The position numbers were made by a program, and so were the translations under genes. DNA of 64,000 bases from a virus (taxonomy: Duplodnaviria > Caudoviricetes): IMG/VR virus record IMGVR_UViG_3300014656_000025, positions 6,498 through 70,497 of that record; one strand, 5' to 3'. Below the pieces are notes generated by a model. It was not told the DNA's origin. It did not search any database and saw only the letters and a program-made list of their open reading frames with translations. Shown here piece after piece: positions 48,461-61,376 of the stretch (positions within the stretch are counted from its first letter, which is position 1; every line of letters begins with the position of its first letter).

Positions 48461-51007
48461 CTAGAACGGTTCCGTGCCAGTAGTGCCACTTGCAACCGTG
48501 AGTGTAGCCAGTCCATTCCCATTAAGAACCTCCATAGCATTCCGTGAACTGACGGAACGTAGCAGGCGGTTAGTTGGAGCATCGCTATCCGGCGGCGACA
48601 AATACAGCGGGATGTAGGGTGAAAACACCGCCGCAGCCCGTCTCCAACTCTCAGGCTTGAAGCCGAAGAGCATCGTGTTTGGATAGAACCAAGCGGACTT
48701 ATAGACAGTGTACTCAGCGAACTTACCGGGCTGAGTTATGCCGAGACCAAACTGATTGTCAGTGGCCGTGGCACTGGAAGTCCAGAACTGGTTCATGGCC
48801 GCAAGCATCGCAACGCTCCTGGTGTCACCGACTATCCAGTTTGCGCCGTTATAGACCTTGGCGGCGATGTCAGAGCTTACGCGATTAACCCACAGCGAGA
48901 GACCTTGGTTATACCACTCACCCTGAGATTCCCAAGCGGTGGGCTTGGCCGTGCCATAGGTTTCTGTAGCTGCTGTTGCGCCAGCTCTCATCATCTCTAG
49001 GAATTCTCCGTTGAGTTCCCTAGCGATTTCATTGACCGATTCGGCAAGCAATTCCTGCTCTGCATCGAGGCCGAACGCGGCCTTCATGTCCTGCATCAGG
49101 ACAGAAGTTATGTTGTAGTAGATGGACTTCTCGACTGCGGTGATGTCTGTCGAGTCGAAGTCCAGTGCAATCTGACTCTTCGTTGCGGCTTCCGTGTGGT
49201 CGGCCCAGCCCGTGTCGAATGCCCCACTGTCATCCATGTCACTACCATCGTAAGTCCCACTAGCATACTCAAAGTTCAGGTAGTAAATGGTTCCAGTCTT
49301 CTGACTGATGGGCTGTACGCTCTGAAGGTCAAAAGGAATGAGCTTCGGGAAAATCGAGCGCACGAGCGGAAGGATGTATGCCTGCGTCGTACCGAGCGCA
49401 GTGCTTGTGGTTACAGCCTCCTGCATCTGATAGCCCTGCCGCGTGCAAGCCTGGAAATACTGCGGATAGTTCTTCTGGTAGTTTTCGAGGATACAACGCA
49501 TGTTGTATGCTGGGTTAGAAGGTATCGCTTCCCCAGTATCCTCAATGCCTTCCATCAGGTCATGGAAAACCTCGCCTACGGTTTCTGGTCTATCACGACC
49601 ATCGGTGCTTCCACCGTAGTTAGGCAGCCAGAACTTCTCACGTTCATCACCCGTGATTATTCCGATGCCTCCGTATTTATCATTCATGGTAAGTGCGCTC
49701 AACTGCGGCGTAACCGAAAGAACGGTGTCCGCAACCTCTTCAGGAGTAGAACAGTCCTTCAGATGCGCTCCCACTAGGAACGCGACGCTTTTGTTGCCCT
49801 CACTGAGTGTGTCAATTGCTGTCTTTTTGGCTTCGGCGAGCGCAGCAGCTTTAGCGAACGCATCGTGGGTAGCACCAACCTGAGCTACAATACCATCCTG
49901 CGTCCGCAACAGTACTAGGTCAGCAACCTGCTTGGCGATAGCGTCCACATCTACCTGTGGCGCAACAGGTTCATCAGCCTCAGGCGTTACTTCTGGCGTC
50001 GGAGTAACCTCCTCAACCACTTCATCTTCAACTTCCTCAACTTCTTCTACAACGTCTTTTTCGTCAGCCATTATACTGGCCTCCTCGTTTTCTGTTTGTT
50101 CATCAGCACTGTCTTTTGTAAAACTGACAGTTTTGGTTTTGGCTGCACCTCTATCTACGAGGTCACACCCATCCCAGATGTAGTTGCGGATTTCAACATA
50201 TTCCTTACCATCTGGACTATCATCAGCATTTATGATTTTGCGGTCTCCATAACCAATTATTGACCATTCTGTTTGCACGTCGTGTTCCCACAACGTCATT
50301 ATGTCTGTCCCTGCGCTAGTTGGAAGGACTGCTCCTTCGAGATAGACACTATCACCTTGGAGAAACACTGCATCATAACGAACTACTATATTACTAGGAT
50401 TGCCTCCAGAGAAAAACCCTGGATGTCCGTCCTGTCCAGTAAATCTTCCGGCTTTCATCATGCGGTTTACACGAGGTAGGTTTTTCTCAAATTGCTTGCG
50501 TGGATAAAGTCTTCGGTTCTTGTTTATTTTATCCATTTGCGCAACAATTGCGCGAAACCTCATCGAGCCATCACTTGGTGCTTCTTCGAGGTCTTCAATT
50601 ATTTCTGCTTTTCCAACGAATGTATCCTCGATGCGTTCCCTGCCGTCGTTCTTCAACTCATCAACGCGGGCTTCGGCGATTGTAAGTAGCGATACGTCAT
50701 CACTGTCCAATATCTGCAACAGAACATCTTCAGCCTCAGCAACATCAGTGGCGTCGGCGATGGCTTCCGCAATCACGGAATCACCATCAACACTATCCAC
50801 TTCGAGTTGCATTTCTGCGCCACACTCAAGACACCCTGCGGGTGTAACGTCATACTCTTGCGTATACCCACATTCTGGACACTCACAAGTTTCATCGTTT
50901 TTGACATCTAATTCATCATCAGAAATACGGTTATCATCTGCCATAAGCATCATCCAATCTGGCAAACCCTCTGTCCTACATCGGCACGCTTGTGGTTTTT
51001 CGGCCAT
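48461..51007 (-). CDS. fused prohead protease (T4 gp21-like) - scaffold - major capsid protein (T4 gp23-like)
   Basis: NKNRRLYP, DGHP, WSIIGYG, DLVDRGA; acidic linker; ILPLVRSIFPKLI..VQPI, DAEQEL..EIARELN, ANWIV, FSPYIPL; true start may be near 50944. Confidence 0.88.
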   Translation of the reverse strand: MAEKPQACRCRTEGLPDWMMLMADDNRISDDELDVKNDETCECPECGYTQEYDVTPAGCLECGAEMQLEVDSVDGDSVIAEAIADATDVAEAEDVLLQILDSDDVSLLTIAEARVDELKNDGRERIEDTFVGKAEIIEDLEEAPSDGSMRFRAIVAQMDKINKNRRLYPRKQFEKNLPRVNRMMKAGRFTGQDGHPGFFSGGNPSNIVVRYDAVFLQGDSVYLEGAVLPTSAGTDIMTLWEHDVQTEWSIIGYGDRKIINADDSPDGKEYVEIRNYIWDGCDLVDRGAAKTKTVSFTKDSADEQTENEEASIMADEKDVVEEVEEVEDEVVEEVTPTPEVTPEADEPVAPQVDVDAIAKQVADLVLLRTQDGIVAQVGATHDAFAKAAALAEAKKTAIDTLSEGNKSVAFLVGAHLKDCSTPEEVADTVLSVTPQLSALTMNDKYGGIGIITGDEREKFWLPNYGGSTDGRDRPETVGEVFHDLMEGIEDTGEAIPSNPAYNMRCILENYQKNYPQYFQACTRQGYQMQEAVTTSTALGTTQAYILPLVRSIFPKLIPFDLQSVQPISQKTGTIYYLNFEYASGTYDGSDMDDSGAFDTGWADHTEAATKSQIALDFDSTDITAVEKSIYYNITSVLMQDMKAAFGLDAEQELLAESVNEIARELNGEFLEMMRAGATAATETYGTAKPTAWESQGEWYNQGLSLWVNRVSSDIAAKVYNGANWIVGDTRSVAMLAAMNQFWTSSATATDNQFGLGITQPGKFAEYTVYKSAWFYPNTMLFGFKPESWRRAAAVFSPYIPLYLSPPDSDAPTNRLLRSVSSRNAMEVLNGNGLATLTVASGTTGTEPF

Positions 51008-57595: not shown

Positions 57596-57973
57596 ATGCC
57601 AAAGCTCAACCGACAAATGGAAGACGTTCTCTGCGCTATTTACACTATCGAACTAACCAACACCATCCCCCGCAACGCTATGATTGGTAAGGCCTGCAAT
57701 ATGCCGCCCAATCTAGTAACACATTGGGGGAAGAAACTGGCTGCGCAAGGACTTGTGCAATTTGGTAAGTGGGCATACTACGCATTGACCGAAGACGGTT
57801 TGCCCTTGGCGATTCATCTTTACCAACGGCGCATGGCGTTGGCGACGGCATTACAGGAAGTGTTTGGTGTCAGCGAAGAACTTGCGCTCGAACAAGCTGA
57901 TGCGTGGGAGCATGATTTGACTGAGGAATTAGGGAAGAAAGTCGGGAACGGTGTTTTACCGCTCTACCATTGA
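57596..57973 (+). CDS. DtxR/MntR-family metal-dependent regulator-like protein
   Basis: EDVLCAIY, LTEDG, VFGVSEELA..ADAWEH; leaderless. Confidence 0.8.
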   Translation: MPKLNRQMEDVLCAIYTIELTNTIPRNAMIGKACNMPPNLVTHWGKKLAAQGLVQFGKWAYYALTEDGLPLAIHLYQRRMALATALQEVFGVSEELALEQADAWEHDLTEELGKKVGNGVLPLYH

Positions 57974-58034
57974 GCTACCGGCCATTGCTGGCCGAACCGG
58001 ATTTGAACCGATAACCTGTTCCTTAGCATGGAAC
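57961..58034 (-). ncRNA. circularly permuted tRNA-like RNA (anticodon GCT)
   Basis: order is anticodon arm - variable - T arm - acceptor 3' strand - GCAA - acceptor 5' strand - D arm; all four stems pair. Confidence 0.85.
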
Positions 58035-58040
58035 GATGCC

Positions 58041-58069
58041 GTTATATCAAGTATTCAATCGAATGTCAA
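58041..58069 (-). promoter_or_regulatory. promoter of the permuted tRNA
   Basis: TTGACA-N17-TATAAC with TGn; first stem begins 6 nt after the -10 box. Confidence 0.75.
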
Positions 58070-58084
58070 GAACTATTTTTACTT

Positions 58085-58579
58085 TTATTCCACATCAATT
58101 TTTGGTATAGTCCATAATCCATCATCATTCCATCGGCCAACTTCAACGCCAGCCTCAATCAACATCTCAAGTCCTAATTCATCATAAAGCGGTTCATCCA
58201 AGCACACTACTCTTTTAATCCCCGCGTTGATGATAACTCCAACACAATTCTTACAGGGAACACAACACCAGCAGTACATCGTGCAATCCTTTATGTTGAT
58301 ACCGTTCCTAGCAGCTTGTGCGATAGCGTTGACCTCAGCATGTACAGCAGGGCAATACTCAAGCCCTTCCCCAGAACCATATCCCATTGTGCGCCTGCGA
58401 CATTCAGTATTGCGGTCCTGGCACAAGTCAACGCCACGGGGCGCACCGTTGTAGCCTTCCGAAACAATTGAGCCATCCTTGACGATAATAGCAGCAATTT
58501 GACGCGAAGAACATTTAGACCTCTGCGCCACAACCTTTGCCACTTCTAAAAACTGACGGTCTTTTGCTACACTCAACAC
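58085..58579 (-). CDS. dCMP deaminase
   Basis: SEGYNGAP, HAEVNAI, PCKNC. Confidence 0.92.
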   Translation of the reverse strand: MLSVAKDRQFLEVAKVVAQRSKCSSRQIAAIIVKDGSIVSEGYNGAPRGVDLCQDRNTECRRRTMGYGSGEGLEYCPAVHAEVNAIAQAARNGINIKDCTMYCWCCVPCKNCVGVIINAGIKRVVCLDEPLYDELGLEMLIEAGVEVGRWNDDGLWTIPKIDVE

Positions 58580-60019: not shown

Positions 60020-60093
60020 TGCGAGATAGGGTAGAGGCTACCCGCCAGACTCATATTCTGGAGACGCCGGTTCAAATCCGGCTCTCGCTACCA
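60020..60093 (+). tRNA. tRNA-Met/Ile2 (CAT), U1:U72 mismatch, encoded CCA
   Basis: CCAGA-CTCATAT-TCTGG, GCCGG-TTCAAAT-CCGGC, TCTCGCT-A-CCA. Confidence 0.85.
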
Positions 60094-60191: not shown

Positions 60192-60263
60192 AAGGGCATA
60201 GCTTAGCGGAAGAGCAGCCGCCTCATAAGCGGCAGGTCACTGGTTCAATTCCAGTTGCCCTCA
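60192..60263 (+). tRNA. tRNA-Ile2/Met (CAT), A1:C72 mismatch, no encoded CCA
   Basis: GCCGC-CTCATAA-GCGGC, ACTGG-TTCAATT-CCAGT. Confidence 0.85.
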
Positions 60264-60446
60264 CCCGCTTCTCCTGCCATGTGTAGGATGAGGTCTTTGG
60301 TCGTCAAAGTAACCAATCTAGGGCGACCACTGCAAGTAGCACATTGCCATTGCTGAAAATCGGTCTCGGAACTGTGTGGCGAGGAACCGCTAGCATCTTC
60401 CGCCCTATAGCTTTGGCAACTGGGGAGCAACGTACTCCCCAAACGC

Positions 60447-60488
60447 AATCGGCGGTCACTCAAGCTAAGTGGCCGCCGATTTGTTTTT
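60447..60488. terminator. strong, probably bidirectional terminator
   Basis: AATCGGCGGTCACT-N7-AGTGGCCGCCGATT then TTGTTTTT; lies between convergent RNA units. Confidence 0.85.
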
Positions 60489-60537
60489 AGACTATATGAT
60501 TTGCTATCGAACCATTAGGAAATACCGAAAAGTTGCT

Positions 60538-60612
60538 TGGTGGACGTGGCGGGGGCGAACCCGCGTCCGTTGCCAGTACAACAATGCGGCAGCGTCGAAA
60601 CCTTTCACGCCC
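60538..60612 (-). ncRNA. minimal tmRNA: tRNA-like domain only, no tag ORF
   Basis: GGGCGTG-AAAGGTTTCGAC-helix-GGAC-GCGGGTTCGCCCCCGC-CACGTCC-A-CCA; G3:U70 and A73. Confidence 0.8.
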
Positions 60613-60620
60613 ACTGCCTC

Positions 60621-60691
60621 ATTATAGCACCACTACCGCAGCATGTCGAGTAAAAACTTCCCTTGACAACCACTTTCCTGTATGCTACAAT
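60621..60691. promoter_or_regulatory. divergent promoters (mini-tmRNA and Cys-rich gene cluster)
   Basis: - strand TCGACA-N17-TATAAT with TGn (60649-60621); + strand TTGACA-N17-TACAAT with TGn (60663-60691). Confidence 0.75.
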
Positions 60692-60700
60692 AGAGGTGTT

Positions 60701-60811
60701 ATGGAAGAAAAAGCTAGTAAACTTAAGTGGATGTCAGATGCTGCGATATGTGAGTTGTTGGAAGAAGGACTGCGAAACAAAACCAAAACACTGGAGACTG
60801 ATGATGGGTAA
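60701..60811 (+). CDS. small hypothetical protein
   Basis: RBS GAGGTG plus ATG at 60701. Confidence 0.5.
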   Translation: MEEKASKLKWMSDAAICELLEEGLRNKTKTLETDDG

Positions 60812-61376
60812 TTTCGTAGGTGACCCAATGTGCATTGAAGGACTGTTCTACGAATTGAAACGCAATCACACACCGATTAACCAATGCCCAAGTGATTTCG
60901 ACAAGACCGTGGAATGTCCTTGTTGTATGGCGCTGGGGTCTTTGTATCAAACAGAAGCCCATTACCATAGTCATGTAGCAAAAGTAAATGGCGAGATGGA
61001 AGGAGGCGTCGCGTGGAAGTGTGTAAGTTGCTACAGTGTATTCACGGAAGCGTTTCGTATCGACTGCTATAATCATTATTTCGACCATGAATTCCACTTC
61101 CGATATTACACCCATTGTTACAAAATATGCTGTTGCGTCAACTGTAGATATGTAACTAGACAAGAGTGTGCCGAAAACAATAAAAACCATTGCTGTCCAC
61201 TTTGGGCGACCGACCAAGAATCACAAGATGAGATATGCGGAAAACCCAACCCTAAATGCCCTGAATGCGGTGGCAACATGCAACAATATCTACGCACACA
61301 CGAGGGAATAAGTGTATTATTATGGGAATGCGACGACTGCCACGCTTGTCCTGTGCATCTTAGGGAGAGGTTCTAG
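60801..61376 (+). CDS. Cys/His-rich hypothetical protein
   Basis: multiple CxxC pairs; ATG at 60801. Confidence 0.6.
   Translation: MMGNFVGDPMCIEGLFYELKRNHTPINQCPSDFDKTVECPCCMALGSLYQTEAHYHSHVAKVNGEMEGGVAWKCVSCYSVFTEAFRIDCYNHYFDHEFHFRYYTHCYKICCCVNCRYVTRQECAENNKNHCCPLWATDQESQDEICGKPNPKCPECGGNMQQYLRTHEGISVLLWECDDCHACPVHLRERF

What the first reader, a model, noticed from the sequence alone, without database searches (positions are those of the whole stretch)
60538..60649. 75-nt mini-tmRNA: tRNA-like domain with no mRNA-like domain
Seen: tmRNA-type 5' end GGGCGTG-AAAGGTTTCGAC (no D stem), helix GCTGCC/GGCAAC closed by a 13-nt loop, conserved GGAC, T arm, acceptor with G3:U70, A73 and encoded CCA. 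It has its own extended -10 promoter and a downstream terminator. Caveat: the T loop is 6 nt (TTCGCC) and lacks A58. Known: this domain binds SmpB and is alanylated; TLD-only tmRNAs are known from jakobid mitochondria, while phage tmRNAs usually keep the tag. Inference: an SmpB sponge or a tag-less rescue RNA that blocks degradation of nascent phage proteins, or frees ribosomes stalled by host tRNA/mRNA-cutting defences.
Basis: partly seen in the sequence, partly recalled or inferred. Interest (0 to 1): 0.87.

Follow-up and report, generated by a model that had tools for sequence, protein, structure and literature searches.

The report
Phage tag-less mini-tmRNA gene
This uncultured phage carries a real 75-base gene for only the alanine-accepting, tRNA-like end of the bacterial ribosome-rescue RNA (tmRNA); the type is already known from mycobacteriophage DS6A and is common in phage sequences, and this copy is an odd one with a damaged-looking T loop that its nearest relatives lack altogether.

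Summary
Window 60538-60612 (-) matches Rfam tmRNA above its curated cut-off (50.6 vs 47 bits), with the whole mRNA-like part (308 model positions) replaced by an 11-nt loop. A model built only from other phage mini-tmRNAs scores it 64.3 bits (E 3e-13). A near-consensus extended -10 promoter lies 9 nt upstream.

It is not a new kind. A "TLD only" tmRNA is published for mycobacteriophage DS6A, and a similar molecule inhibited tmRNA in E. coli, perhaps by titrating SmpB. One narrow pattern scan of IMG/VR gave 43 distinct such genes (DS6A and this copy included) with strong covariation. My model also finds the unannotated DS6A gene. This scan has already reported the same kind on other DNA (156 notes).

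Three things are specific to this copy:
- Its T loop is 6 nt and lacks A58, unique among the 43.
- It has no close homologue.
- Related phages (TerL 82% identical) that cover the spot have neither it nor a full tmRNA there.

It therefore sits in a variable cassette and is not conserved in this lineage. The record encodes no SmpB or integrase.

The best reading is an SmpB decoy that damps host trans-translation. Expression, binding and charging are untested. Interest is low to moderate.

The parts
60538..60612 (-). Mini-tmRNA (TLD-only ssrA) gene, 75 nt, ending in encoded CCA
   Evidence: Rfam RF00023 at 50.6 bits, above the gathering score of 47. Leave-one-out family model R2 gives 64.3 bits, E 3e-13, the only strong hit in the 64 kb window.
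60606..60612 (-). Acceptor stem 5' strand GGGCGUG; pairs with 60542-60548 (CACGUCC) and includes G3:U70
   Evidence: Sequence; all 7 pairs are standard in the cmscan alignment.
60597..60605 (-). D-loop analogue AAAGGUUUC with no D stem; contains the GG and UUC of the tmRNA motif
   Evidence: Aligned to the unpaired positions of RF00023.
60566..60596 (-). P2a-like helix GACGCUGCCG / UGGCAACGGA (tandem G.A base, one C.A mismatch) closed by the 11-nt loop CAUUGUUGUAC. It replaces the whole mRNA-like domain, and there is no stop codon downstream of the loop in any frame.
   Evidence: cmscan alignment with 308 model positions deleted; sequence read directly.
60549..60564 (-). T arm: stem GCGGG/CCCGC with an aberrant 6-nt loop UUCGCC (no A58)
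   Evidence: It is the only 6-nt T loop among 43 distinct family members, 41 of which have a 7-nt loop with A58.
60538..60548 (-). Acceptor 3' strand CACGUCC, discriminator A73, encoded CCA
   Evidence: Sequence.
60621..60649 (-). Sigma-70-type promoter TCGACA-17 nt-TATAAT with extended -10 TG. The -10 element ends 9 nt before G1 of the RNA.
   Evidence: Consensus scan, 11 of 12 matches, TG present. This is a consensus match only; expression was not tested.
60418..60481 (.). Two strong hairpins (60447-60481 and 60418-60437) lying between the converging tRNA operon (+) and the mini-tmRNA (-). They form the terminator for the + strand and a possible weak or bidirectional stop for the - strand.
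   Evidence: Terminator scan calls it on the + strand only. The - strand trailer folds with z-score -4.65. The hairpins are conserved in relative L118, which lacks the mini-tmRNA.
60490..60897 (.). Lineage-specific variable segment. It holds the mini-tmRNA, its promoter, the divergent early promoter TTGACA-17-TACAAT (60663-60691, +) and a 36-codon ORF (60701-60811).
   Evidence: Homology to L118 stops just after the terminator and resumes at 60897. In L116, window 60334-61035 is replaced by about 65 nt.

Best explanation
This is a phage gene for a tag-less 'mini-tmRNA', made of the tRNA-like domain (TLD) of tmRNA only. It is the same kind as the published TLD-only ssrA of mycobacteriophage DS6A.

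Shown here:
- The sequence and structure match tmRNA and a phage mini-tmRNA family.
- There is no tag reading frame.
- A near-consensus sigma-70 promoter sits directly upstream.
- The record holds no phage SmpB.

Inferred mechanism:
1. Host RNA polymerase transcribes the gene early, from the promoter that lies back-to-back with the early-operon promoter.
2. The transcript is trimmed to the 75-nt RNA. The 5' end lies at or within about 2 nt of the start site, or is cut by RNase P; the 3' end is trimmed back to the encoded CCA.
3. The RNA binds host SmpB through the conserved GGUUUCGAC...GGAC elbow and P2a base.
4. Because it has no resume codon or ORF, it cannot complete trans-translation. It therefore competes with host tmRNA for SmpB (and perhaps for AlaRS, EF-Tu and stalled ribosomes) and lowers SsrA tagging during infection.

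The aberrant T loop may make this copy a poor substrate for charging or EF-Tu binding. That is compatible with a pure decoy, because the published inhibition did not depend on chargeability.
For: Identity:
- RF00023 scores 50.6 bits against a cut-off of 47.
- Model R2, built from 41 other phage mini-tmRNAs without the window, scores it 64.3 bits, E 3e-13.
- Model R1 finds the DS6A TLD-only gene at JN698994 28478-28560 (50.2 bits), although DS6A was not in its training set.

The family is real:
- 43 distinct sequences (this copy and DS6A included), acceptor stem 97% paired, G3:U70 in 42 of 43.
- T-stem pair 2 is UA 15, CG 14, GC 9, AU 5, with none unpaired.
- Covariation score is 0.466 against 0.112 when shuffled and at most 0.092 when partners are slid.

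No tag frame: the sequence has no stop codon after the P2 loop in any frame.

Promoter: 11 of 12 consensus positions plus the TG.

No SmpB in the record, so any partner must be the host's.

[quoted passage not shown] PMC11915505 repeats this.
Against: - Nothing shows expression, SmpB binding, charging or any effect.
- The T loop is 6 nt without A58, unique among 43 family members. This may disturb the elbow that SmpB recognises, so the copy could be impaired.
- The P2 helix has a C.A mismatch.
- The element is absent from the related phages that cover the syntenic spot (L116 and L118, TerL 82% identical) and from every relative locus and record searched. It has no close homologue (best 69% identity in the model alignment), so its conservation under selection cannot be shown.
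- The MFE fold is no more stable than shuffled sequence (z -0.31). That is usual for tRNA-like RNAs but gives no support.
- The host is unknown.
Confidence: 0.55

Rival explanations
1. Tag-less ribosome rescue. The RNA is alanylated and enters stalled ribosomes with host SmpB and EF-Tu. It accepts the nascent chain, and the peptidyl-RNA then leaves by drop-off or hydrolysis. Ribosomes are freed (for example after host mRNA- or tRNA-cutting defences act) without phage proteins being marked for degradation.
For: - The full alanine identity set is present: G3:U70, A73 and encoded CCA.
- CDS-less tmRNAs persist in mitochondria alongside SmpB, which suggests some activity without a tag (PMC11915505).
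- 29 of 43 family members encode CCA and all 43 have A73.
Against: - The record encodes no release factor-like protein, peptidyl-tRNA hydrolase or SmpB that could complete such a cycle.
- The T loop lacks A58 and is 1 nt short. This is expected to weaken tRNA-like handling by EF-Tu and the ribosome (inference from tRNA structural knowledge).
- The published experiment showed inhibition of tmRNA, not rescue.
Confidence: 0.2
2. Decaying or neutral passenger. A once-functional mini-tmRNA cassette was acquired by recombination in a variable intergenic hotspot and is now degenerating, with no current role.
For: - It has a unique 6-nt T loop without A58, and a C.A mismatch in P2.
- It is absent from the relatives that cover the same spot and from every relative locus and record searched.
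- No close homologue exists in IMG/VR or in the metagenome scan.
Against: - All 7 acceptor pairs, all 5 T-stem pairs, the UUCGAC/GGAC motifs, A73 and CCA are intact.
- It still scores 64.3 bits with a model that never saw it.
- The promoter is near-perfect.
- One other family member has a non-7-nt T loop (8 nt, L039), so some variation occurs.
Confidence: 0.18
3. Integration-site remnant. The sequence is an attP-type copy of the 3' end of a host ssrA gene, carried by a temperate phage that integrates into tmRNA genes.
For: - tmRNA genes are frequent integration sites for phages and genomic islands (PMC11915505).
- The 3' half (T arm plus acceptor strand) is identical to that of full-length tmRNAs in several bacterial MAGs, apart from the loop.
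Against: - The 5' acceptor strand, the D-loop analogue and the P2 strand are also present, in the standard order, which an attP does not need.
- The record holds no tyrosine integrase.
- The element has its own promoter.
- The same complete short architecture recurs in 42 other distinct sequences (41 unrelated IMG/VR contigs plus DS6A).
Confidence: 0.03
4. Chance resemblance, or a degenerate tRNA-Ala gene that has lost its anticodon arm.
For: - The element lies next to a tRNA cluster.
- ARAGORN does not call it a tmRNA.
Against: - The E-values are 5e-17 (Rfam) and 3e-13 (leave-one-out model).
- The tmRNA-specific UUCGAC...GGAC motifs and the absence of a D stem are present.
- ARAGORN gives 38 of 40 clear family members no call at all and miscalls the other two (tRNA-Arg; permuted tmRNA), so its silence here is uninformative.
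Confidence: 0.02

Closest known systems
TLD-only ('standard, no CDS') tmRNA of Mycobacterium phage DS6A (tmRNA Website tmID 11587 / Phage__Mycobacterium.9; Mao et al. 2009, as cited in PMC4131195 and PMC11915505)
   Same: - Phage-encoded and in the standard (unpermuted) gene order.
- Acceptor stem with G3:U70 and A73, no D stem, a P2a helix closed by a short hairpin in place of the mRNA-like domain, and a T arm.
- Both are found by the same covariance model: DS6A 83 nt at JN698994 28478-28560 (50.2 bits), window 75 nt.
   Different: - No sequence kinship beyond the shared motifs, and the phages are unrelated (TerL at most 22% identical to any isolate).
- DS6A has a 7-nt T loop with A58 and no encoded CCA (its end is ACUA). 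The window copy has a 6-nt loop without A58 and does encode CCA.
- DS6A falls below the Rfam tmRNA gathering score; the window copy passes it.
Unannotated mini-tmRNAs in IMG/VR viral contigs (for example L013:3686-3765, L009:1227-1302, L035:5172-5253)
   Same: Same architecture and size range (61-94 nt), with strong covariation in all three helices. The window copy scores 64.3 bits against a model built from them alone.
   Different: - The window copy is the only one with a 6-nt T loop.
- Its P2 loop lacks the AAAGCC-type hairpin seen in many members.
- Its best identity to any member is 69%.
Mitochondrial tmRNA of jakobids and oomycetes (Rfam RF02544) and the CDS-less plastid tmRNAs of Mallomonadaceae
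   Same: They are tmRNAs reduced to the tRNA-like domain with no tag reading frame. Their function without a tag is unresolved (PMC11915505).
   Different: - The organellar genes are usually permuted, and they are the organelle's own rescue RNA working with a nucleus-encoded SmpB.
- The phage gene is in the standard order and is an extra copy facing a host that presumably has its own full tmRNA.
Full-length phage tmRNAs (mycobacteriophage Bxz1 group, Bacillus phage G, and the two-piece tmRNAs of marine myophages such as Melnitz)
   Same: They are phage-borne ssrA genes with the same tRNA-like domain (PMC4131195, PMC9004378).
   Different: Those keep a tag ORF and pseudoknots and can in principle carry out complete trans-translation. 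The window RNA has an 11-nt loop in place of all of that.

Membership tests
tmRNA (Rfam RF00023), tRNA-like domain | Score at or above the curated gathering threshold | tested here: met
   50.6 bits against 47, spanning model positions 1-374 with an internal deletion.
tmRNA (Rfam RF00023), tRNA-like domain | 7-bp acceptor stem with G3:U70, discriminator A73 and a CCA end | tested here: met
   GGGCGUG/CACGUCC, then A, then an encoded CCA.
tmRNA (Rfam RF00023), tRNA-like domain | No D stem; conserved GG..UUCGAC on the 5' side and GGAC on the 3' side, forming the G.A/A.G/C-G base of P2a (the region known to bind SmpB) | tested here: met
   AAAGGUUUCGAC ... GGAC aligned to the model consensus.
tmRNA (Rfam RF00023), tRNA-like domain | T arm with a 5-bp stem and a 7-nt T-loop carrying U54-U55-C56-R57-A58 | tested here: not met
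   The stem is intact, but the loop is UUCGCC, 6 nt with no A58. 41 of 43 family members have a 7-nt loop with A58.
tmRNA (complete, functional in trans-translation) | mRNA-like domain: resume codon, tag ORF with a stop codon, and pseudoknots | tested here: not met
   308 model positions are replaced by an 11-nt loop, and no stop codon lies downstream of the loop in any frame.
tmRNA (complete, functional in trans-translation) | Binds SmpB, is charged by AlaRS and enters stalled ribosomes | not testable with these tools
   This needs biochemistry. No phage SmpB is present in the record.
Phage TLD-only mini-tmRNA (DS6A type) | Standard gene order, 60-95 nt, with the acceptor, P2a hairpin and T arm only | tested here: met
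   75 nt; the family range is 61-94 nt.
Phage TLD-only mini-tmRNA (DS6A type) | Recognised by a covariance model built from other members only | tested here: met
   R2 (41 sequences, window excluded) gives 64.3 bits, E 3e-13. The next best hit in the window is a tRNA at 19.7 bits.
Phage TLD-only mini-tmRNA (DS6A type) | Inhibits host tmRNA (the published property of a DS6A-like molecule) | not testable with these tools
   Known only from the literature (PMC4131195, PMC11915505, both citing Mao et al. 2009).
Phage TLD-only mini-tmRNA (DS6A type) | Conserved in related phages (evidence of selection in this lineage) | tested here: not met
   L116 and L118 (TerL 82% identical) cover the syntenic spot and lack it. 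No hit in any of the relatives' loci or in the three IMG/VR records searched (all fragments).
Mitochondrial tmRNA (Rfam RF02544) | Best match within the tmRNA clan | tested here: inconclusive
   cmscan keeps only the best clan member, and RF00023 won. No separate RF02544 score was shown.
attP fragment of host ssrA | Only the 3' part of ssrA is present, next to an integrase | tested here: not met
   The 5' half is present as well, and the record holds no PF00589 integrase.

The most novel reading that the evidence does not exclude
TLD-only mini-tmRNAs may be a widespread, largely unannotated phage strategy against host trans-translation. This copy, with a T loop that should cripple tRNA-like handling but with the SmpB-binding elbow intact, could be a naturally 'charge-dead' pure SmpB decoy. 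It sits in an island with other tRNA mimics: a YrlA-like element at 57958-58019 and two tRNA-CAU genes with 1:72 mismatches.
Probability: 0.25. Interest if true: 0.55.

Novelty: new member of a known kind. Interest (0 to 1): 0.3.

Why it matters
Trans-translation is the main ribosome-rescue and protein-tagging pathway in bacteria, and it is a drug target. A phage RNA that shuts it down by mimicry would be a compact natural inhibitor.

The kind is already published (DS6A), and this scan has met it repeatedly. This window therefore adds only one more member, and an atypical one.

Its practical value has three parts:
- It is further evidence that standard annotation misses these genes. ARAGORN gave 38 of 40 no call and miscalled the other two, and the DS6A GenBank record does not annotate its own copy.
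- It is a natural T-loop variant that could separate SmpB titration from chargeability.
- It is an example of the element behaving as a mobile cassette with its own promoter in a variable intergenic hotspot.

Tried and rejected
- Nucleotide searches of INPHARED phages with the locus and with 14 kb around it found no match.
- An exact 47-mer search in IMG/VR found nothing.
- A metagenome pattern keeping this copy's acceptor stem and T stem found nothing, so no orthologue is available.
- Host inference failed. A pattern for the 3' end in bacterial genomes hit full-length tmRNAs of unrelated MAGs (Clostridia, Actinomycetes, Balneola), which is not diagnostic. TerL is at most 22% identical to any isolated phage.
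- Rfam does not find the DS6A gene at its gathering score. My own model was needed.
- The MAFFT alignment of all members (A1) misaligned the 5' strands and was not used. A 9-sequence alignment with uniform geometry (A2) seeded the model instead.
- The record was searched for SmpB, RtcB, the RF-1 domain, peptidyl-tRNA hydrolase and tyrosine integrase. All were absent, but the record is only 79% complete.
I do not link it to this RNA.
- I rejected the attP-remnant, chance and tRNA-Ala pseudogene readings; see the rival explanations.

Full report
**Observation**

The window is part of a 70.5-kb IMG/VR virus record estimated to be 79% complete.

- Rfam's tmRNA model (RF00023) matches window 60538-60612 on the minus strand at 50.6 bits. 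The curated cut-off is 47, and the E-value is 5e-17 for the whole window. The match runs from model position 1 to 374 with 308 internal positions deleted.
- Read 5' to 3', the 75-nt RNA is:
  - GGGCGUG, the acceptor 5' strand;
  - AAAGGUUUC, the D-loop analogue with no D stem;
  - GACGCUGCCG, an 11-nt loop CAUUGUUGUAC, then UGGCAACGGA, which form a P2a-like helix with the tmRNA-typical G.A/A.G/C-G base and one C.A mismatch;
  - C;
  - GCGGG-UUCGCC-CCCGC, the T arm;
  - CACGUCC, the acceptor 3' strand, giving G3:U70;
  - A73, then CCA.
- No stop codon lies downstream of the loop in any frame, so no tag reading frame exists.
- ARAGORN calls the three neighbouring tRNAs but not this gene.
- A promoter, TCGACA-17-TG-c-TATAAT (11 of 12 consensus positions, extended -10), ends 9 nt upstream of G1. 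It lies back-to-back with a TTGACA-17-TACAAT promoter that drives the plus-strand early genes.
On the minus strand it is followed by GCGUUUGGGG. It also exists in a relative that lacks the mini-tmRNA.

**Is it a recognised kind?**

Yes.
- Hudson, Lau and Williams (PMC4131195) list 'Mycobacterium phage DS6A (TLD only)'. They state that a similar molecule, chargeable or not, strongly inhibits tmRNA, perhaps by titrating SmpB (Mao et al. 2009).
- The 2025 tmRNA database paper (PMC11915505) counts 9 'Standard, no CDS' sequences. It repeats the DS6A result alongside the CDS-less mitochondrial and Mallomonadaceae plastid forms.
- I could not read Mao et al. itself.

**A family, not a curiosity**

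- One narrow pattern (TTCGAC, 12-42 nt, GGACGNGGGTTCR) hit 108 IMG/VR stretches.
- About this many hits are expected by chance for the bare pattern (my estimate). Even so, 47 of 109 had a perfect 7-bp acceptor stem in register, nearly all with GGG.../...UCC plus A73. Those features were not part of the pattern.
- I seeded a covariance model (R1) from nine members of uniform geometry and searched the fetched loci. It gave 54 hits at E below 1e-4 in the first set, including the window copy and DS6A, and five more clear hits in the rest.
- On the 43 distinct sequences of that first set:
  - the acceptor stem is 97% paired;
  - G3:U70 occurs in 42 of 43;
  - the free T-stem pair is UA 15, CG 14, GC 9, AU 5, with none unpaired;
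  - seven of ten P2 pairs show double changes;
  - the covariation score is 0.466, against 0.112 for shuffles and at most 0.092 for slid partners.
  The alignment was fitted to the model, which favours pairing, but the slid control is far below the observed value.
- R1, which was not trained on DS6A, finds an 83-nt match at JN698994 28478-28560, between gp33 and gp34 (50.2 bits). The GenBank record annotates nothing there, and Rfam misses it at its gathering score.
- ARAGORN gave 38 of 40 family members no call and miscalled the other two.
- A second model (R2), built from 41 members without the window, scores the window copy 64.3 bits (E 3e-13). The next best hit in the 64 kb is a tRNA at 19.7 bits.
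- Earlier notes of this scan describe the same kind on other DNA (156 notes). My result agrees with them and was reached from my own searches.

**What is particular to this copy**

- *The T loop.* UUCGCC is 6 nt and lacks A58. Among the 43 distinct members, 41 have a 7-nt loop with A58, one has 8 nt, and this is the only 6-nt case. No alternative register restores a 7-nt loop without breaking the stem-acceptor junction (read from the sequence).
- *No close homologue.* The best identity in the model alignment is 69%. An exact search of IMG/VR and a relaxed metagenome pattern both found nothing.
- *Absence from relatives.*
  - Phages with TerL 82-84% identical were found in IMG/VR and in metagenomes. 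Two of them, L116 and L118 (both 82%), cover the syntenic region.
  - In L118, homology runs through the tRNA region and the terminator, stops at about window 60490 and resumes at 60897. About 930 nt of unrelated coding sequence lie in between.
  - In L116, window 60334-61035 is replaced by about 65 nt.
  - Rfam run on L114-L116 and L118, and R1 run on all these loci including L121 and on three whole relative records, find neither a mini-tmRNA nor a full tmRNA.
  - The element therefore sits in a variable cassette with its own promoter. There is no sign that it is a recent deletion product of a full-length phage tmRNA, and no evidence that this lineage conserves it.
- *Other genes.* The record contains no SmpB, tyrosine integrase, RtcB, RF-1-domain protein or peptidyl-tRNA hydrolase. 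It is incomplete, so absence is not proof.

**Context**

- The phage is a tailed phage with a terminase, a portal and a fused protease-capsid ORF.
- It is very distant from any isolate (TerL at most 22% identical), and its host is unknown.
- The mini-tmRNA converges on a plus-strand unit of three tRNAs: two tRNA-CAU with 1:72 mismatches and one tRNA-Pro.

**Mechanism**

Shown:
- tmRNA-type tRNA-like domain architecture;
- membership of a covarying phage family;
- no tag frame;
- a strong promoter consensus;
- no phage SmpB.

Inferred from the published DS6A-type experiment and from established knowledge that SmpB binds the tRNA-like domain's elbow and P2a base, and that G3:U70 specifies alanine:
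- the RNA is made early by host polymerase;
- it is trimmed to 75 nt;
- it binds host SmpB;
- lacking a template, it acts as a competitor that lowers SsrA tagging.

I put this at about 0.55. Tag-less rescue (0.2) needs charging and ribosome entry, which the T-loop defect makes less likely. A decaying passenger (0.18) fits the defect and the absence from relatives, but not the otherwise intact helices, motifs and promoter. An attP remnant (0.03) and chance (0.02) are disfavoured.

**Verdict**

This is a real gene and a new member of a known kind. Interest is low to moderate. The most useful angle is that this natural T-loop variant could separate SmpB titration from chargeability.

Noticed in passing
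window 57958-58019 (-): Sub-threshold Rfam hit to YrlA, the bacterial Y RNA-like family with a tRNA-like module (34.5 bits against a gathering score of 69, E 4e-5, model positions 24-84 of 114). The segment (window about 57915-58094) has no counterpart in relatives L118 and L116, so it too looks like a lineage-specific insertion.
   Followed up: partly
window 60290-60335 (+), between tRNA-Met and the terminator: A conserved hairpin (GUAGGAYG..UCUUUGGUCGU-loop-GCGACCA) is shared with relatives L116 and L118, downstream of their tRNA genes. It matches no Rfam family, and one compensatory change is seen. It could be a small RNA or a processing or regulatory site.
   Followed up: partly
window 60020-60093 and 60192-60265 (+): Both tRNA-CAU genes have a 1:72 mismatch in the Rfam alignment (U.U and A.C), an initiator-like feature. 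Their anticodon stems lack the three consecutive G-C pairs of initiators. Their identity (fMet, Met or Ile2) is unresolved.
   Followed up: no
L118:2976-3052 (-), a relative of this phage: This tRNA gene has a 9-nt anticodon loop. ARAGORN reports a 4-base anticodon 'acgg', and Rfam tRNA scores it 49.4 bits. It is a possible quadruplet-decoding or frameshift-suppressor tRNA, and the window has no copy.
   Followed up: no
L112 (JN698994, Mycobacterium phage DS6A) 28478-28560 (+): The published TLD-only tmRNA of DS6A lies between gp33 and gp34. It is not annotated in the GenBank record, and Rfam RF00023 misses it at the gathering threshold.
   Followed up: yes
L076:1562-1638 (-) and L076:5108-5183 (-): One IMG/VR contig carries two different mini-tmRNA genes 3.5 kb apart (68.6 and 61.9 bits).
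   Followed up: no
window 57596-57973 (+): The phage encodes a DtxR-type iron-dependent repressor of 125 aa (Pfam Fe_dep_repress plus Fe_dep_repr_C). It lies next to a dCMP deaminase at 58085-58579 (-).
   Followed up: no
window 48461-51007 (-): A single 848-aa ORF combines a head maturation protease (phrog_207, residues 141-336) with a major head protein (phrog_138, residues 607-801).
   Followed up: no
L124 (MAG labelled Lysinibacter sp., contig JBBAQX010000098) 5851-8000: A 9.7-kb contig holds at least ten tRNA genes and a low-scoring 369-nt tmRNA (53.8 bits). It looks like a phage tRNA island binned into a bacterial MAG.
   Followed up: no
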